Of a stretch of DNA of 64,000 nt, positions 11,110 to 16,263 are shown in pieces. Position 1 is the stretch's first letter. The number at the start of each line of letters is the position of its first letter. The stretch lies in NCBI GenBank assembly GCA_032986305.1, contig GCA_032986305.1_3672.1. The stretch is one strand, 5' to 3'. Under the pieces are notes generated by a model. The model had not been told where the DNA came from, ran no database searches, and worked only from the letters and a program-made list of their open reading frames with translations. Source of the stretch: a phage. The position numbers and the translations under genes were made by a program.

Positions 11110-13452
11110 TTACCAAAGATCTGTTGACATAAAGTTAATATCTTTGTTATTCTCCCACTCAAGTTTTGCATCAAGTATTTTGCTAAACTCCCCCTCATCT
11201 ATTGAAATCGTGATTTTGCCATCACTGATCTCTAAAGGTAGCATTTCCATAGTTCTTAATTGAGAAGCAAAACCAGGACCACCCGGCAACGGAAGAGTCC
11301 CTCCCGGTAAGGTGTCCAAAGGATCAACAAACCCGTTACCTCCCGATATGATATCTTTGCGAATCATATCGCTGATAGTATCCAGTTGCTGATTTCTCTC
11401 ACTCAGCGGGTTGAAACGGTCATTAAATAACTCCCCGGCACTTAATATTGTACCGATAATACCAAGCTTCCCAAGCAGGCCAACTTTACCGCCAGGTGTC
11501 TTGAGGCCACCTCCCCCTTTTCCTGCCGCACCACCACCACCAGATCCTTCTGTGGTAGCTGCACCTGCACCTGCTGCTCCAGCTGCGCCTCTTATAGAAC
11601 TAAGGAATTTGAAGGTTTTTACAAGCATAGATGCCATGACAAAACCTTTTGTCAGGGCGTTCACTACCAGCATGATGGCAGCAGCAAACCCTGCCCATTT
11701 AGCATAGCTAAAGGTGTCATTAAGCTCTTCAGAATATTCCTTCGTCTTAGCTGTTATGAATCCCCATTTAATCCCCCATTCAAGGAAAAACATGCGGATC
11801 TTGACTATGGTATTGTTTAGTTCACCAACTACCCAGTTGAGGCCTCTCATAAACCCGCTAACAAAATCACCAGAGGCATCCCACACAAATTGCAAAGTCT
11901 CACCTGTGCGAATCAGTGTATAATAGAACTCTGTTAATTCATCAGCCCAACGGGTGAACAGCTTCTGACGAGATAGTTCGATGAAGGTTTTCAGCCTGTT
12001 TTCTGCCAGTACGTTAGACTTCTGCATTCTTTCATAACCAGCTGCAGATGCCTCGTTCATGTACTTAGCCACATACTTCATGATCTTGGCTGTTTTAACC
12101 TCACCTTTCTTCATCATGTCCATGAACTGATCCATGGATAGTTCAGAAAGACCAAAAGCCTCTTTGGTGGCTTTGATAAAAGGTTCGTATGCACCAGGCA
12201 ATGCTTCAGCAAGTTGTTGCTTCAGTTCTTCGGACATTACCTGTCCTTTACCGAGCATTTGCTGGATTGCCATGATGCCACGCTGGTATTTTACCTCATC
12301 GGCACCGTAAGCAGCAGCATACTGTGAGTATGCAGAGAATAGCTCATGCACCTCTTGATTTGTCATCTGGTTTTTGGCGTTTACCGCCATCTGGGCGTAA
12401 CCTTGAAGACCAGATTTGAGATCAAAACCAAGACGCATAGCCTCTTGCTGGACAAACGCAACCTCACTGTTGGCTTTGTTTGGATCTCCAGTAACAGCAG
12501 TAAGAGCAGCACTTGCCCCCTCCATCATGTGACCAGATCTGTTCACAGCAGTAAATCCAGAGAAAGCCGTATACGCAGCTGTTGCATTAATAACAGATCT
12601 ACGTAAGTCTCTCATGGCATCGCCTAGTGTAAGCGTTTGGCTGGTGGCGCTTTTAAATCCAGACTGCAGCGCTGACAGGTGGGCGTTAAAGGTTGACTTT
12701 TTCATCTCCCCGCGAGCAAACCTGGACTCTAACTCTGAGTATCCTGGCAAGCTTCCACGGAATCCGGCTCCATACTTGGCAGAAAGTCTTATCGCAGAGT
12801 TGTAGAGGTGGGTTCTCCTTGCCTCACGATCCGACATAAGCCTATTATCCATACCAGCTTTACTGTCTCTTCTTAGCTGTCTATGATAACGATTCATAGC
12901 GGCTGTTTGAGCTTTCACAAGGTTAGGGTCGGAAGCCACACCACCCATATTAGGGTTACCTGGGATATACTTGAAAGATTTGGCATTAGCCAGAACTCTT
13001 GCCTTGGGTGCCTTATAACCGCCGTAAGACACTGGTGTAGATTTGGCAGCCTTTTTGGCCTCTTTAGCTTGCTGCTGGTAGAACTTACGCATCCTAGCCA
13101 TTTCTGGATTTTTAGCGGTAAGATTACCCACAGCTTGTTTGCGTCTCGCGTTCTCCCTACGTTCTATTGCAGCCCTTACTGCAGCCTCTTTCTTGGCTTG
13201 TGCTACGCTCTCCCTGTGCAGTTTAGCATTTGCCTGAGATTGCTGTCTGGCAACCCGTTGCATTGTTTGCTGGGTTTTAACAGCCACTGCCTGCCATCTA
13301 CTCATTGGGTTGGCTGAGTTAAAATCCTCGCCAAGTTTCCTGAACTCCCTCCCAATACTGCGAATTTTCTCTACAGCTTTTTTGTAGGAGGAGTTCTCTA
13401 TCTCAAAGCCAATCTTGTTGACTGTTGTGGCAACTATTTTGTTTGTAGCCAT
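11110..13452 (-). CDS. tail tape measure protein (780 aa)
   Basis: long ORF immediately after chaperone pair; coiled-coil-like Ala/Gln/Lys-rich N-terminal half and Gly-rich segment; canonical position. Confidence 0.7.
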   Translation of the reverse strand: MATNKIVATTVNKIGFEIENSSYKKAVEKIRSIGREFRKLGEDFNSANPMSRWQAVAVKTQQTMQRVARQQSQANAKLHRESVAQAKKEAAVRAAIERRENARRKQAVGNLTAKNPEMARMRKFYQQQAKEAKKAAKSTPVSYGGYKAPKARVLANAKSFKYIPGNPNMGGVASDPNLVKAQTAAMNRYHRQLRRDSKAGMDNRLMSDREARRTHLYNSAIRLSAKYGAGFRGSLPGYSELESRFARGEMKKSTFNAHLSALQSGFKSATSQTLTLGDAMRDLRRSVINATAAYTAFSGFTAVNRSGHMMEGASAALTAVTGDPNKANSEVAFVQQEAMRLGFDLKSGLQGYAQMAVNAKNQMTNQEVHELFSAYSQYAAAYGADEVKYQRGIMAIQQMLGKGQVMSEELKQQLAEALPGAYEPFIKATKEAFGLSELSMDQFMDMMKKGEVKTAKIMKYVAKYMNEASAAGYERMQKSNVLAENRLKTFIELSRQKLFTRWADELTEFYYTLIRTGETLQFVWDASGDFVSGFMRGLNWVVGELNNTIVKIRMFFLEWGIKWGFITAKTKEYSEELNDTFSYAKWAGFAAAIMLVVNALTKGFVMASMLVKTFKFLSSIRGAAGAAGAGAATTEGSGGGGAAGKGGGGLKTPGGKVGLLGKLGIIGTILSAGELFNDRFNPLSERNQQLDTISDMIRKDIISGGNGFVDPLDTLPGGTLPLPGGPGFASQLRTMEMLPLEISDGKITISIDEGEFSKILDAKLEWENNKDINFMSTDLW

Positions 13453-13506
13453 GCTTTCCTCATAATAAAAAGGGCCAGATCCCAGAAAAGGAATCCGGCC
13501 CTTAGA

Positions 13507-14240
13507 TTATCCTCTCCTGCGTTTAGCTTTCGCAGCAGCTGCGGCAGCCTTCTGCTCCCGCTCCATTTCCCTGTTTTGGACGGTATCTAGGAATTCTTCG
13601 ATATCAAGATACTCACAGAGCTTCAGGAAATACGCCATATCTGCAAGATTTAGCGATTCAAAATTTTCCCCTTTGAAATTCTTGAGCACCCTGCACCAAA
13701 GAAAGTCGAACCAGTTAAGTGAACTGTTCTTGGCTGCCCACTCACTGGCCCTCACAACAACCTTGCTTATTCCTGCTCTTCCGGAGTCTGATCCAGATTG
13801 TTCACCTGCTGGATCATACCCATCTGCTGTAACATCTCCAGAAGGCTTCCTAAACCGTCTTGTGTGAAAAAACAGCCGTAGTTAACCTCCAGAACCTTAC
13901 CTGCCAGCTTAATCATCTCTAGCAGATGCCCTGCAAACACAACATCAGGGTTAAGCTTATCCACACCATCCACGGTAATATCTTCGAACAAGATTTTAAA
14001 TAACTCTTCAATAGAGTTGTCATCAAGTTCTTGGAACAGGTAAGCCAGGGCTGTAGGAAGGACCTCTGCCATATTCTGACCGCCTGAGAGAATAGATCCA
14101 CCGATAGCACCTAGCGGGACAGCCACAATCTTACCGATTTTAGGCATGTTTTTCATTGCTTTCATCGGTCCCCAGTGGGTGATCACAAAGTTGTGCCCTG
14201 CTAAATCAATCTCTGTTGTAGGTCTAAAATTTATAGCCAT
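13507..14240 (-). CDS. tail assembly chaperone frameshift product (G-T-like fusion via -1 programmed frameshift)
   Basis: -1 frame is open from the heptamer TTTTTTC (reverse of 13866-13872) through ORF 13507-13755; read by hand the shifted frame continues ..FHTRRFRKPSGDVTADGYDPAGEQSGSDSGRAGISKVVVRASEW.. Confidence 0.5.
13767..14240 (-). CDS. tail assembly chaperone (G-like, 157 aa)
   Basis: ORF between tail tube and tape measure genes; overlapping -1 frame ORF downstream. Confidence 0.55.
   Translation of the reverse strand: MAINFRPTTEIDLAGHNFVITHWGPMKAMKNMPKIGKIVAVPLGAIGGSILSGGQNMAEVLPTALAYLFQELDDNSIEELFKILFEDITVDGVDKLNPDVVFAGHLLEMIKLAGKVLEVNYGCFFTQDGLGSLLEMLQQMGMIQQVNNLDQTPEEQE
13866..13872 (-). 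other. slippery heptamer U UUU UUC for -1 ribosomal frameshift
   Basis: X XXY YYZ pattern in the G reading frame (codons tgt ttt ttc). Confidence 0.45.
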
Positions 14241-14350
14241 TTTATAGCATCCTTATTAGTCATGTTGTGCACCATATTTGTGTATTTTACCATGATTATG
14301 GTGCATTGTCAATTTAACCTTTCAAGCAATTCAAGAACGTGTGTCAAAAC

Positions 14351-14384
14351 CATAAAAGCAAAAAGCCCCACCCGAAGGTGAGGC
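14351..14384 (-). terminator. intrinsic terminator after tail tube gene
   Basis: minus strand GCCTCACC-TTCG-GGTGGGGC hairpin followed by TTTTTGCTTTTAT. Confidence 0.5.
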
Positions 14385-14402
14385 TTATGCTAAAGTGTGC
14401 CC

Positions 14403-14876
14403 TTAGATAATACCTGCAAGACCTGCGAGGCCAGTAAGAGCACCAGTGATGTTATCACGGTTGAGCCATGCATCCAGAATACCGATATCCCAGTCCAATT
14501 GACCTACTTCGGTTCCGTAAGTCAGGTCAGGCTGTTTCTGGATCCAACCAATTGTGGAAATACCAGGACCCTGGCTACCTTCCAGCAGAACCGGGAAGAA
14601 TACCAGGCCAGTAATCGATGCCTGTTTCTGCCAGTCAGAAAGGTAAGCGTTCCATACAGAAGTGTTCTGCAAAGATACAGTCATAACACCAGATTGGTTA
14701 CGAGACAGGGCCGCAGACATTTCGCCATCCACACCAACGTGAGGGTAGATGTTATCTTCATTTCTTGAAACAACGATCTTGGTGTCAGCAGCGAAGCCAG
14801 TGACACGCTGCTGCATCAGGTACAGTTTGACCTTTTTAGGGTCATAAGCATAAGGAGTTAAAATTTGAGTTTCCAT
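14403..14876 (-). CDS. tail tube protein (157 aa)
   Basis: small ORF immediately downstream of the 458-aa sheath-sized gene; AAGGAAG RBS. Confidence 0.55.
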   Translation of the reverse strand: METQILTPYAYDPKKVKLYLMQQRVTGFAADTKIVVSRNEDNIYPHVGVDGEMSAALSRNQSGVMTVSLQNTSVWNAYLSDWQKQASITGLVFFPVLLEGSQGPGISTIGWIQKQPDLTYGTEVGQLDWDIGILDAWLNRDNITGALTGLAGLAGII

Positions 14877-14886
14877 CTAGTCTTCC

Positions 14887-16263
14887 TTATTCAGTCATTG
14901 CAACAGCATTGGTGGATTTAGAACCAACTTTGTCCAGAAGGACGTTGATCCGGATACGAACGAAGTGCAGGGCGTTGTTATACACCAGTTCTACTTTCAC
15001 ACCTTCCAGAACACGAGCAGCCAACTGATTGGTTGGGATCTCTGCACGTTTAGGAACTGTGATGATCGGGTCGTAGAACACATTGTTGTCTTCGTCAAAA
15101 CCTGTCAGGATCGCGCCATTCTTAATGCCAGTATTGATCGGGTTGTTCATCAGAACAGACTTGATAACCGGAAGATCATCATCAGACATCTTCATGCTTA
15201 AACCCATATTAGAGCGACGATGCATGTACCCAAACATAGATTCTTCAGATCTGAACTTGATCCAGTGTGCAAAACGAATAGCGTCTGCATACTGACCTGA
15301 AGCACACTTGCCTTCCCAGAAAGCGCCAACACCGTTAATCATTCTGTAGAAGTTAACGTGGTTTTCCCAAATCGCCATACGCTGAGTTAAAGTCAGAGAT
15401 GGTGCAATCACACCAGGCATCTGTTTTAAATGCAAGCTGTCGCCATAGGACGGATCGTTAGATGCCATAGCGCCTATGATACCACCCTCTGGAAAATCTT
15501 TATCAGCACGAGGATCGTACATGCCAACACTGTCATATTGTGCAGCCATCAGTTTGGTGGCGATGTTATTATCTTTACCCGTCACATCTTCTGCAGTAGA
15601 GTAGACATGCAGCTTGTAGTTAGCCTGAGCCCACTTAGCACATGCTTCAATGTCGGTGTGGTCTTCATGGCACAGGAAGTACCAATTGTCACGCTCAGCA
15701 TTGATCTTATCAACTACTGTAGAAGGTTTTTCAGCATTGGCGATATTTTTGATTGTATAGTTACCAGTATGGTAACCAACAGTACAGTCACCAGTGATGG
15801 TGATAACACCATCGGCAGCCTCTACAGTGATATCGTCCAAGTTATCATCTGCTTCGATCTTAGTCTTCATTGACTCTGCAATCTGAGTTGCACCTGTTCC
15901 ACCAGAGATAGGTACTATCAAAGAAGTATTGTAGCTACCTTTTGCAATAGTCATTACGACATCGGTATCAGCTGCGGCAGCAATACCTTTAAAATCTACA
16001 GTGGTCTTTTCTTTGGCCTGTCTGCCGATCATAACGTATTGTGGAGGGAATACACCACCAAAAGCTTTTGCTGCAAACTCATACGCTGCAGAGCCTTGTG
16101 CGAAACCATCTTCCACCATCTGATCCAGCTCTGCATATACGCGAGCTCGCTCAGTAAAGTTGTTGTGGATAGCGATGAACAGGGGAGTTTCGAAACCTAC
16201 AGTGTCAATAGGCTGGGTTCCGAGGTTAACTGTAACATCTACCACTTTATCTAAATATGGCAT
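14887..16263 (-). CDS. tail sheath protein (458 aa)
   Basis: size and position (before tube, chaperone, tape measure) typical of contractile-tail sheath. Confidence 0.55.
   Translation of the reverse strand: MPYLDKVVDVTVNLGTQPIDTVGFETPLFIAIHNNFTERARVYAELDQMVEDGFAQGSAAYEFAAKAFGGVFPPQYVMIGRQAKEKTTVDFKGIAAAADTDVVMTIAKGSYNTSLIVPISGGTGATQIAESMKTKIEADDNLDDITVEAADGVITITGDCTVGYHTGNYTIKNIANAEKPSTVVDKINAERDNWYFLCHEDHTDIEACAKWAQANYKLHVYSTAEDVTGKDNNIATKLMAAQYDSVGMYDPRADKDFPEGGIIGAMASNDPSYGDSLHLKQMPGVIAPSLTLTQRMAIWENHVNFYRMINGVGAFWEGKCASGQYADAIRFAHWIKFRSEESMFGYMHRRSNMGLSMKMSDDDLPVIKSVLMNNPINTGIKNGAILTGFDEDNNVFYDPIITVPKRAEIPTNQLAARVLEGVKVELVYNNALHFVRIRINVLLDKVGSKSTNAVAMTE

What the first reader, a model, noticed from the sequence alone, without database searches (positions are those of the whole stretch)
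13507..14240. Programmed -1 frameshift in the tail assembly chaperone
The slippery heptamer T TTT TTC lies in the chaperone frame (reverse of 13866-13872). The -1 frame is open from there through ORF 13507-13755, predicting a G-T-type fusion. The site lies ~100 nt before the G stop, so the fusion replaces the G C-terminus.
Basis: partly seen in the sequence, partly recalled or inferred. Interest (0 to 1): 0.4.

Follow-up and report, generated by a model that had tools for sequence, protein, structure and literature searches.

The report
Tail chaperone -1 frameshift, rV5-like phage
This rV5-like E. coli phage almost certainly makes a long form of its tail assembly chaperone by a programmed -1 ribosomal slip at T TTT TTC; the device is well known in other phages but is not annotated in the records of this phage group that I inspected.

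Summary
The window is a Vequintavirus (rV5/FV3-like myophage). On the minus strand the order is sheath, tube, chaperone G (13767-14240, Pfam Phage_TAC_15), ORF T (13507-13755), tape measure. T_TTT_TTC (13872-13866) lies in the G frame. It is the only X_XXY_YYZ heptamer in the overlap. The -1 frame opens 9 nt upstream of it and runs to the T stop, predicting a 244-aa fusion.

Comparative evidence is strong. All 51 relatives fetched and analysed, plus Moogle, keep the -1 frame open from the homologous site; G identity falls to about 28%. Forty-three of 45 distinct G sequences have NNT TTT TTC, although the preceding residue varies (Cys, Pro, Ser). The other two carry CCCTTTT and GGGAAAG at or near that position. 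T has no conserved start codon. No fused protein was found in two very large protein databases.

Most lineages have a Shine-Dalgarno-like GGAGG/GAGGTG 11-13 nt upstream. No conserved downstream structure was found.

The homologous site is already annotated as a join in Felix O1-like phage Moogle and was proposed for Pakpunaviruses in 2025. This is therefore a new member of a known kind: an annotation correction, not a new mechanism. No protein-level evidence exists here.

The parts
13767..14240 (-). Tail assembly chaperone G (157 aa), the 0-frame product
   Evidence: ORF. Pfam PF21822 Phage_TAC_15, E 1.1e-23, 84.5 bits. PHROG 3840 'tail assembly chaperone', E 6e-69.
13866..13872 (-). Slippery heptamer T_TTT_TTC. 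P-site Phe124 UUU and A-site Phe125 UUC can both re-pair to UUU in the -1 frame.
   Evidence: NNT TTT TTC in 43 of 45 distinct relatives, replaced by CCCTTTT or GGGAAAG in the other two.
13510..13866 (-). Trans-frame segment read after the slip (119 codons): a basic RRFRK motif, a Gly/Ser/Asp/Pro-rich linker, then the conserved T domain. The stop codon is at 13507-13509.
   Evidence: Translation. Alignment of the -1 frame peptides of 16 lineages.
13507..13755 (-). 'T' ORF as a mechanical ORF call (GTG start, 82 aa). Most likely it is only the C-terminal part of the fusion and not a separate gene.
   Evidence: The GTG is lineage-specific and there is no conserved start in relatives. PHROGs 10409/8811/16039 'unknown function', with different N-termini.
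13882..13884 (-). TAA stop in the -1 frame, 9 nt upstream of the heptamer. It marks where the -1 ORF opens.
   Evidence: In relatives the last -1 stop lies 3-36 nt upstream of the heptamer (93 nt in Barba16S).
13885..13890 (-). Shine-Dalgarno-like GGAGGT, 12-13 nt upstream of the heptamer. Candidate frameshift stimulator of the dnaX type (inferred, not shown).
   Evidence: Predicted anti-SD duplex of -10.0 kcal/mol. A comparable element (-6.4 kcal/mol or stronger) is present at the same spacing in 11 of 15 lineages, including Moogle, against 13% of background windows. The Glu codon there is mostly GAG, against 27% GAG elsewhere.
14284..14312 (-). Sigma-70-type promoter upstream of G (TTGACA-17-TAAAAT with TG extension)
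   Evidence: 11 of 12 matches. The rV5 record annotates promoter P51 at the equivalent place.
13470..13503 (-). Intrinsic terminator-like hairpin between the T stop and the tape-measure start
   Evidence: 14-pair stem followed by a T run. Annotated as a terminator in the rV5 and Murica records.
14363..14386 (-). Intrinsic terminator-like hairpin after the tube gene, upstream of the G promoter
   Evidence: Annotated as a terminator in the Murica record.
11110..13452 (-). Tape measure protein gene (780 aa), the expected client of the chaperone
   Evidence: Pfam PF20155 TMP_3, E 4e-18.
14403..14876 (-). Tail tube protein gene (157 aa), upstream neighbour
   Evidence: Pfam PF11681 KPP10_Orf10, E 7e-9. 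Annotated as tail tube or structural protein in relatives.

Best explanation
The G/T locus of this Vequintavirus encodes two tail assembly chaperone isoforms from one start codon.

Most ribosomes read G to its stop at 13767 and make the 157-aa protein. A minority slip one base backwards when Phe124 (UUU) is in the P site and Phe125 (UUC) is in the A site, on U_UUU_UUC (13872-13866). Both tRNA-Phe molecules re-pair to UUU. Reading then continues at CAC in the -1 frame for 119 codons. The result is a 244-aa G-T fusion that shares residues 1-125, the TAC domain, with G. It carries a basic/Gly-Ser-rich linker and an ~80-aa T domain in place of G's 32-residue C-terminal tail.

By analogy with lambda gpG/gpGT (from my own knowledge of Xu, Hendrix and Duda 2004 and later work), the shared G domain would coat the tape measure protein, and the T domain of the rarer fusion would recruit tube subunits to start tail polymerisation.

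The upstream GGAGGU, 12-13 nt from the heptamer, probably stimulates the slip by pairing with 16S rRNA, as in dnaX. No downstream structure appears to be needed.

Shown: the sequence anatomy and its conservation. Inferred: that the slip occurs, its efficiency, the SD stimulation, and the functions of the two isoforms.
For: 1. Anatomy: as set out in the observation check.

2. Family identity of G: Pfam PF21822 at 84.5 bits and PHROG 3840. Gene order is sheath, tube, G, T, TMP.

3. Frame conservation. In 16 GenBank relatives, 35 IMG/VR loci and Moogle, the -1 frame is open from the homologous site to the end of T in every case. The taxa covered are Vequintavirus, Seunavirus, Avunavirus, Certrevirus, Stephanstirmvirinae, Plateaulakevirus, Barbavirus, Pseudaeromonas phage KLEP7 and the Felix O1-like Mooglevirus. 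The +1 frame closes within 2-20 codons beyond the G stop.

4. Nucleotide-level selection. The codons are TGT/CCT/AGT + TTT + TTC in 43 of 45 distinct sequences, so the preceding amino acid changes but its third base stays T. Flanking synonymous sites vary (TAC/TAT, GGC/GGA/GGT). Other Phe codons in the same genes are 50 TTT: 53 TTC.

5. Slip-site turnover. KLEP7 has C_CCT_TTT and Barba16S has G_GGA_AAG, the heptamer I recall from lambda. Both are in frame, in the overlap, and within about 4 codons of the same position.

6. No conserved start for T. L023 and L045 have no ATG/GTG/TTG before the conserved core. In CB7, L031, L041 and others the first candidate start lies inside the core. Gene callers worldwide start T homologues at many different internal positions, and no protein longer than 102 aa carries the domain apart from spurious LRR hits.

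7. Chance. P(-1 frame open | G protein) is 0.09 for the window, and the product over deep clades is about 1e-8.

8. U_UU.C is the second most frameshift-prone A-site tetramer in E. coli, and all-pyrimidine heptamers are favoured (PMC4066793).

9. The homologous site in Moogle (LEANFGSFF, AGT TTT TTC, GGAGG 13 nt upstream) is deposited as a joined 'tape measure chaperone' CDS. A 2025 paper proposes the same GTTTTT-type -1 PRF for Vandenendeviridae and Andersonviridae (PMC12846349).

10. SD-like element.
Against: - There is no protein-level evidence. The rV5 genomics/proteomics paper contains none of the words frameshift, chaperone or tape measure. Chaperones are not expected in virions (my own knowledge), so virion proteomics would not show the fusion.
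- In this window T does have a possible start of its own: GTG at 13755, with a weak AAGG 5 nt upstream. Independent initiation in this lineage is therefore not excluded.
- No conserved downstream hairpin or pseudoknot was found, and nothing in Rfam. The level of frameshifting is unknown and could be low.
- The IMG/VR loci were retrieved with a peptide pattern that includes the Phe-Phe site. That sample is biased toward keeping FF at the amino-acid level, although not in codon choice. The 16 GenBank relatives were found by whole-protein tblastn and do not carry this bias.
- The lineages are phylogenetically related, so the multiplied probabilities overstate independence.
Confidence: 0.86

Rival explanations
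1. G and T are two separate proteins. T is initiated independently at GTG 13755, possibly by coupling to termination of G 12 nt upstream. The U-run is simply the codons of a conserved Phe-Phe dipeptide.
For: GTG at 13755 is preceded by AAGG at a usable distance. Every GenBank record of this group that I inspected annotates two separate CDSs.
Against: The GTG is not conserved; the same position is Leu or Gln in Seunavirus and its relatives. Several lineages have no start codon before the conserved T core. Annotated starts of T differ widely between records, and between database clusters. Conservation of synonymous sites in the heptamer and the uninterrupted -1 frame through the overlap are not explained by separate initiation. 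The -1 peptide motif R-F-R directly after the heptamer is conserved.
Confidence: 0.07
2. The fusion is real but arises from transcriptional slippage of RNA polymerase on the T6 run (loss of one U in the mRNA), not from ribosomal slippage.
For: A homopolymeric T run is present in 43 of 45 sequences. From my own knowledge, RNA polymerase slippage on A/T runs is documented in bacteria.
Against: The run is only 6 T, and 5 in KLEP7. Efficient transcriptional slippage usually needs about 8-9 or more (my own knowledge). Barba16S uses G_GGA_AAG, which has no long homopolymer, at the equivalent site. The heptamer is held strictly in X_XXY_YYZ register with the 0 frame, and the last base is always C. 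Those constraints make sense for tRNA re-pairing but not for polymerase slippage. The upstream SD-like element is a ribosomal stimulator.
Confidence: 0.04
3. Chance: an unselected slippery-looking string in a gene that happens to be followed by an out-of-frame ORF.
For: In a single genome the -1 frame would stay open through the overlap about 9% of the time. The MFE of the downstream RNA is not unusual (z = -1.6).
Against: The whole arrangement is conserved in every one of 52 loci and in Moogle, down to 28% protein identity, with heptamer turnover.
Confidence: 0.01

Closest known systems
Bacteriophage lambda gpG/gpGT programmed -1 frameshift (Levin, Hendrix and Casjens 1993; Xu, Hendrix and Duda 2004, cited in PMC8785237)
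   Same: Two overlapping ORFs lie between the major tail (tube) gene and the tape-measure gene. There is a -1 shift on an X_XXY_YYZ heptamer. The long form shares the N-terminal chaperone domain and adds a T domain. The downstream ORF has no dependable start of its own. One relative (Barba16S) carries G_GGA_AAG, which I recall as lambda's own heptamer.
   Different: This is a myophage, not a siphophage. The heptamer is U_UUU_UUC. The slip occurs 32 codons before the G stop, so G keeps a sizeable private C-terminal tail; in lambda, as far as I remember, only a few codons follow the site. G belongs to Pfam Phage_TAC_15, with no detectable sequence similarity to lambda gpG tested here. A Shine-Dalgarno-like element lies upstream.
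Citrobacter phage Moogle (Felix O1-like, Mooglevirus) 'tape measure chaperone' with annotated frameshift (KM236239; PMC4319497)
   Same: The site is homologous. The motif is LEANFGSFF against LEVNYGCFF here. The codons are the same, NNT TTT TTC, and GGAGG lies 13 nt upstream. The -1 frame runs into a T-like ORF that ends just before the tape-measure gene. It is deposited as a joined CDS.
   Different: G is shorter (133 aa), the overlap is only 14 codons after the site, and the sequences are too diverged for Moogle to appear in the tblastn hits at E below 1e-3. Moogle is annotated with the join; the Vequintavirus and other related records I inspected are not.
Proposed -1 PRF with invariant GTTTTT motif in the TAC gene of Vandenendeviridae (Pakpunavirus Adele) and Andersonviridae (PMC12846349, Dec 2025)
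   Same: The argument is the same (the -1 frame is never interrupted across divergent alleles, with a conserved poly-T motif near the 3' end of TAC-N). The virion module is evolutionarily related; that paper places Vequintavirinae and Stephanstirmvirinae as relatives.
   Different: That paper's text as retrieved analyses the TAC locus only for Vandenendeviridae and Andersonviridae, not for Vequintavirinae or Stephanstirmvirinae. It did not report heptamer turnover, the synonymous-site test, the SD-like element or the lack of a start codon.
E. coli dnaX -1 frameshift (A_AAA_AAG with an upstream Shine-Dalgarno-like stimulator; PMC4344849 and PMC5600365 abstracts)
   Same: A tandem-slippage heptamer lies in a bacterial translation system, with an internal SD-like sequence roughly 10-13 nt upstream.
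   Different: dnaX also has a strong downstream hairpin, and its shift truncates the protein rather than extending it. No conserved downstream structure was found here. The SD role here is only inferred.

Membership tests
G/GT-type tail assembly chaperone with programmed -1 frameshift (Xu et al. 2004 criteria) | The pair of ORFs lies between the major tail/tube gene and the tape measure gene | tested here: met
   Tube 14403-14876 (PF11681), G 13767-14240, T 13507-13755, TMP 11110-13452 (PF20155), all on the minus strand.
G/GT-type tail assembly chaperone with programmed -1 frameshift (Xu et al. 2004 criteria) | The upstream ORF is a tail assembly chaperone | tested here: met
   Pfam PF21822 Phage_TAC_15 at 84.5 bits (cut-off 22). 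PHROG 3840, E 6e-69. The fold was not confirmed: the single-sequence AF2 model was unusable (pLDDT 38), and there was no PDB sequence match.
G/GT-type tail assembly chaperone with programmed -1 frameshift (Xu et al. 2004 criteria) | The downstream ORF overlaps the 3' end of the upstream ORF in another frame and extends it | tested here: met
   The -1 frame is open from 13881 to 13510, with a 112-nt overlap and 86 codons beyond the G stop. The +1 frame closes after 8 codons.
G/GT-type tail assembly chaperone with programmed -1 frameshift (Xu et al. 2004 criteria) | A canonical slippery sequence lies in the 0 frame within the overlap | tested here: met
   T_TTT_TTC at 13872-13866 is the only such heptamer in the overlap. 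U_UU.C ranks second among A-site tetramers in E. coli (PMC4066793).
G/GT-type tail assembly chaperone with programmed -1 frameshift (Xu et al. 2004 criteria) | The arrangement and the slippery site are conserved in divergent relatives | tested here: met
   52 of 52 loci, plus Moogle. There are 45 distinct G sequences: 43 with NNT TTT TTC and 2 with other valid heptamers.
G/GT-type tail assembly chaperone with programmed -1 frameshift (Xu et al. 2004 criteria) | The downstream ORF lacks its own translation start | tested here: inconclusive
   Met across the family: there is no conserved start, and several lineages have none before the conserved core. This window, however, has a lineage-specific GTG at 13755 with a weak AAGG.
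G/GT-type tail assembly chaperone with programmed -1 frameshift (Xu et al. 2004 criteria) | The fusion protein is made in vivo at a low fixed ratio and is required for tail assembly | not testable with these tools
   This needs mass spectrometry or western blotting of infected cells, plus genetics. No proteomic report was found.
dnaX-type SD-stimulated -1 frameshift | An internal Shine-Dalgarno-like sequence about 10-14 nt upstream of the heptamer that stimulates the shift | tested here: inconclusive
   The sequence is present (GGAGGT 13890-13885, duplex -10 kcal/mol), is shared by 11 of 15 lineages, and shows a GAG codon bias. It is absent in the Certrevirus and Plateaulakevirus lineages, and stimulation was not measured.
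dnaX-type SD-stimulated -1 frameshift | A downstream stimulatory hairpin 5-9 nt after the heptamer | tested here: not met
   RNAalifold found 0 pairs family-wide and only weak, non-homologous stems within subgroups. The window MFE has z = -1.6, and its stem starts about 20 nt downstream.

The most novel reading that the evidence does not exclude
The most novel reading not excluded combines three ideas.

1. The frameshift signal is an ancient device that needs no RNA structure and is stimulated by a Shine-Dalgarno-like element. It would be shared by a whole super-clade of large myophages: Felix O1-like, Pakpuna-like, rV5-like, phi92/phAPEC8-like, Plateaulakevirus and Barbavirus. Only the heptamer itself has been swapped over time (U6C, CCCUUUU, GGGAAAG).

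2. Because the slip occurs about 32 codons before the G stop, the two isoforms carry two alternative, doubly coded C-termini, and each of these has its own function.

3. The G/GT gene is a self-contained unit, bracketed by a promoter and terminators, and this sets the chaperone-to-tape-measure ratio.
Probability: 0.3. Interest if true: 0.35.

Novelty: new member of a known kind. Interest (0 to 1): 0.25.

Why it matters
The main value is practical. Of the 138 related GenBank phage records, the 21 I inspected list an orphan 'hypothetical protein' after the chaperone gene, or no gene at all, with inconsistent start codons. PHROGs files that fragment under three 'unknown function' families. Recognising a single G/GT gene with ribosomal slippage would correct the annotation of Vequintavirinae, Stephanstirmvirinae and related therapeutic-candidate phages.

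It also links these phages to the Felix O1-like and Pakpunavirus sites, so that one conserved recoding signal spans a very deep myophage lineage. This gives a natural series (U6C, CCCUUUU, GGGAAAG, with or without an upstream SD-like element) for studying how frameshift signals are maintained and replaced.

It does not reveal a new mechanism.

Tried and rejected
- **Downstream stimulatory RNA.** RNAalifold on 16 diverse loci gave no pairs. Subgroup folds gave only weak, non-homologous stems. The single-sequence MFE was not significant. A possible long-range GGUUUC...GAAACC pairing in Certrevirus rests on 5 sequences with one-sided changes only, so I did not pursue it.
- **Rfam.** A scan of 13400-14400 found only a sub-threshold GcvB hit (18.7 bits against 42), which is chance.
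- **Solved structures.** A PDB sequence search with G found nothing meaningful.
- **Structure prediction.** AlphaFold2 on the 244-aa fusion without an alignment gave pLDDT 37.9 and was unusable. No fold search was run on it.
- **Natural in-frame G-T fusions or deposited joined proteins.** None was found in the 5.8-billion-cluster search (maximum query coverage 62%). None was found with the T segment either. The long hits are DUF285/LRR repeat proteins, which I judged spurious.
- **Literature.** Searches for a described frameshift in rV5-like, PVP-SE1-like, phAPEC8 or phi92 phages found nothing specific. The rV5 paper and the phiTE cryo-EM paper do not mention it.
- **A +1 frameshift.** Rejected, because the +1 frame closes within 2-20 codons past the G stop in every lineage.

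Full report
**What the window is.** A megablast of 11000-16300 hits 138 phage records. Of these, 113 are 95-99% identical, and they are headed by Escherichia phages of the genus Vequintavirus (rV5, FV3, Murica and others). On the minus strand the ORFs and their Pfam matches are:
- sheath, 14887-16263 (DUF3383);
- tube, 14403-14876 (KPP10_Orf10);
- a 157-aa ORF, 13767-14240, matching Phage_TAC_15 at 84.5 bits against a cut-off of 22;
- an 82-aa ORF, 13507-13755, with no Pfam match;
- the tape measure protein, 11110-13452 (TMP_3).

PHROGs calls the 157-aa protein a tail assembly chaperone (phrog_3840, E 6e-69). It files the downstream ORF under three different 'unknown function' families.

**Checking the observation.** The minus-strand sequence reads ...GTT AAC TAC GGC TGT TTT TTC ACA CAA... 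in the chaperone (G) frame.
- T_TTT_TTC therefore sits at 13872-13866 in X_XXY_YYZ register.
- The -1 frame has a TAA at 13884-13882. It is then open through the heptamer, past the G stop and through the 13507-13755 ORF.
- The heptamer is 103 nt upstream of the G stop and is the only in-frame XXXYYYZ in the overlap.
- A tandem -1 slip, with Phe124 UUU in the P site and Phe125 UUC in the A site, lets both tRNAs re-pair to UUU. The next codon read is then CAC.
- The product is G(1-125) plus 119 residues (HTRRFRKPSG...KAKRRRG), 244 aa in all.

**Is it more than chance?** I fetched 16 relatives from GenBank by tblastn with G (annotated regions) and 35 loci from IMG/VR. G identity to the window ranges from 99% down to about 28%.
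- In every locus the -1 frame is open from the homologous site through T. The +1 frame closes within 2-20 codons beyond the G stop.
- Among 45 distinct G nucleotide sequences, the three codons at the site are TGT TTT TTC (25), CCT TTT TTC (16) or AGT TTT TTC (2). The preceding amino acid changes (Cys, Pro, Ser), but its third base is always T.
- Neighbouring synonymous sites vary (TAC/TAT, GGC/GGA/GGT/GCC).
- Elsewhere in the same genes, Phe codons are 50 TTT: 53 TTC. Third-position T is 31-55% for Cys, Pro and Ser.
- The two remaining sequences carry other valid heptamers, in frame, within the overlap and within about four codons of the same place: C_CCT_TTT in Pseudaeromonas phage KLEP7 and G_GGA_AAG (lambda's heptamer, from memory) in Rheinheimera phage Barba16S.
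- With G's protein held fixed and synonymous codons randomised, the -1 frame survives the overlap in 9% of trials for the window and in 1-41% for other lineages. One value per deep clade multiplies to about 1e-8.

Two caveats apply. The lineages are not fully independent. The IMG/VR set was retrieved with a peptide pattern spanning the Phe-Phe site, so it is biased at the amino-acid level, although not in codon choice.

**T is not a free-standing gene.** I aligned the -1 frame peptides of 16 lineages.
- They show a conserved R-F-R motif immediately after the slip site, then a Gly/Ser/Thr/Pro/Asp-rich linker of variable length, then a conserved ~80-aa core (..A.EYA.KNSSL.WFDYL....L..F.GE...SL...DM.YLLKLNEYLDI..F...).
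- No ATG, GTG or TTG is conserved ahead of the core. Two lineages (L023, L045) have none at all. In several others the first candidate lies inside the core.
- The window's GTG at 13755 corresponds to Leu or Gln in its nearest sister genera.
- GenBank annotators chose very different starts. rV5 and JES2013 even start the ORF at the CTG inside the slip region, while others start after the G stop or far downstream.
- An exhaustive HMMER search of 1.84 billion representatives with the trans-frame segment returned only short ORFs of 43-102 aa that begin at many different query positions. It also returned a few DUF285/LRR repeat proteins, which I regard as spurious.
- No protein covering both halves was found in the 5.8-billion-cluster collection; the maximum coverage of the 244-aa query was 62%. 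So no deposited join and no natural in-frame fusion turned up.

**Mechanism.**
- In E. coli the A-site tetramer U_UU.C is second only to A_AA.G in -1 propensity. Heptamers in which X and Z are all pyrimidines are favoured (PMC4066793). This fits the invariant final C.
- A Shine-Dalgarno-like GGAGGT lies 12-13 nt upstream, at 13890-13885. Its predicted duplex with the 16S 3' end is -10.0 kcal/mol.
- A comparable element (-6.4 kcal/mol or stronger) at the same spacing is present in 11 of 15 lineages, including Moogle, against 13% of background 24-nt windows in the same genes.
- The Glu codon that contributes to this element is GAG in most lineages, against 27% GAG elsewhere.
- This resembles the dnaX arrangement. 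It is an inference, and the Certrevirus and Plateaulakevirus lineages lack the element.
- I found no conserved downstream hairpin or pseudoknot and no Rfam family.
- Transcriptional slippage is unlikely. The run is only six T (five in KLEP7), Barba16S uses GGGAAAG, and the strict codon register and fixed last base point to tRNA re-pairing.

**Function, by analogy.** From established knowledge of lambda gpG/gpGT, the shared N-terminal TAC domain would bind the tape measure protein, and the T domain of the minor fusion would engage tube subunits. This was not tested here.

**Transcription context.** The locus looks like its own transcription unit:
- a terminator-like hairpin after the tube gene (14386-14363);
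- a near-consensus promoter (14312-14284);
- G/GT;
- a strong terminator-like hairpin (13503-13470) just before the tape measure start.

The rV5 and Murica records annotate the corresponding promoter and terminators.

**What is known.**
- The G/GT frameshift is a textbook feature of tailed phages (Xu et al. 2004, cited in PMC8785237).
- For this lineage, none of the 21 related records I inspected carries a joined CDS.
- The rV5 genome/proteome paper contains none of the words frameshift, chaperone or tape measure. The phiTE cryo-EM paper does not mention a frameshift or chaperone.
- The Felix O1-like phage Moogle does have a joined 'tape measure chaperone' CDS. Its site is plainly homologous: LEANFGSFF, AGT TTT TTC, with GGAGG 13 nt upstream.
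- A December 2025 paper argues for a conserved -1 PRF with an invariant GTTTTT motif in Vandenendeviridae and Andersonviridae. It names Vequintavirinae and Stephanstirmvirinae as structural relatives, but in the text retrieved it analyses the chaperone locus only for the first two families (PMC12846349).

**Verdict.** The finding is a new, so far unannotated member of a known kind. It extends a recognised, homologous recoding site to the rV5-like and phi92/phAPEC8-like phages and some smaller groups. Interest is modest (0.25): it is a useful annotation correction and a clean case of heptamer turnover, and no new mechanism is involved. Proof needs the junction peptide VLEVNYGCFFHTR from infected cells, a reporter assay, or a synonymous non-slippery mutant.

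Noticed in passing
window 13470-13503, 14284-14312, 14363-14386 (minus strand): The chaperone gene is bracketed by a terminator-like hairpin and a near-consensus sigma-70 promoter upstream, and by a strong terminator-like hairpin immediately before the tape-measure start codon. G/GT may therefore be a separate transcription unit, with tape-measure expression depending on terminator read-through (matching annotations in rV5 and Murica).
   Followed up: partly
GenBank MG065639, MG065654, MG065662, MG065672, MG065674, MG065677: About 20 records named 'Campylobacter phage' with host C. jejuni are roughly 97% identical to E. coli rV5-like phages over this 5.3-kb tail region, and one (A150) matches the phi92/Justusliebigvirus type. 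Host labels or sample purity look doubtful.
   Followed up: no
L004 1566-1934 (rV5 DQ832317 ORF 50); L056 766-1134 (JES2013 ORF49): Two records annotate the -1 ORF as starting at the CTG inside the slip region, overlapping G by about 109 nt. The long -1 ORF was evidently noticed but given an implausible start instead of a join.
   Followed up: yes
proteins P0005-P0045: A large set of 154-aa chaperones about 75% identical to the window's G comes from contigs of about 130-147 kb in Logan/ENA assemblies. The GenBank phage collection has only one record in the 60-80% identity band. This may be a poorly represented Vequintavirinae lineage.
   Followed up: no
L014 1820-2458; L017 2019-2784; L008 2012-2859: In Barba16S a DNA-binding protein gene on the opposite strand lies between T and the tape-measure gene. 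In Aeromonas phage 4L372XY an endonuclease gene lies downstream of T. In CB7 additional small ORFs lie downstream of T. The T-TMP junction seems to tolerate insertions.
   Followed up: no
L008, L009, L031, L033, L018: heptamer +10 to about +100: In Certrevirus-type loci, which lack the upstream SD-like element, RNAalifold proposes a long-range pairing between GGUUUC, 9-10 nt after the heptamer, and GAAACC/GAAGCC/GAAAUC near the G stop. It rests on five sequences with one-sided changes only. It could be an alternative stimulator or it could be chance.
   Followed up: partly
window 13600-13730 (T core); P0083, P0085, P0089: The T-domain core gives weak multi-stretch HMMER hits (E 1e-5 to 1e-3) to DUF285/leucine-rich-repeat proteins. 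This is probably a chance periodic Leu/Phe pattern.
   Followed up: partly
PHROGs 10409, 8811, 16039: The T fragment is split over three PHROG families of 82, 60 and 72 positions, all 'unknown function'. This appears to result from arbitrary start-codon calls on a non-gene.
   Followed up: partly
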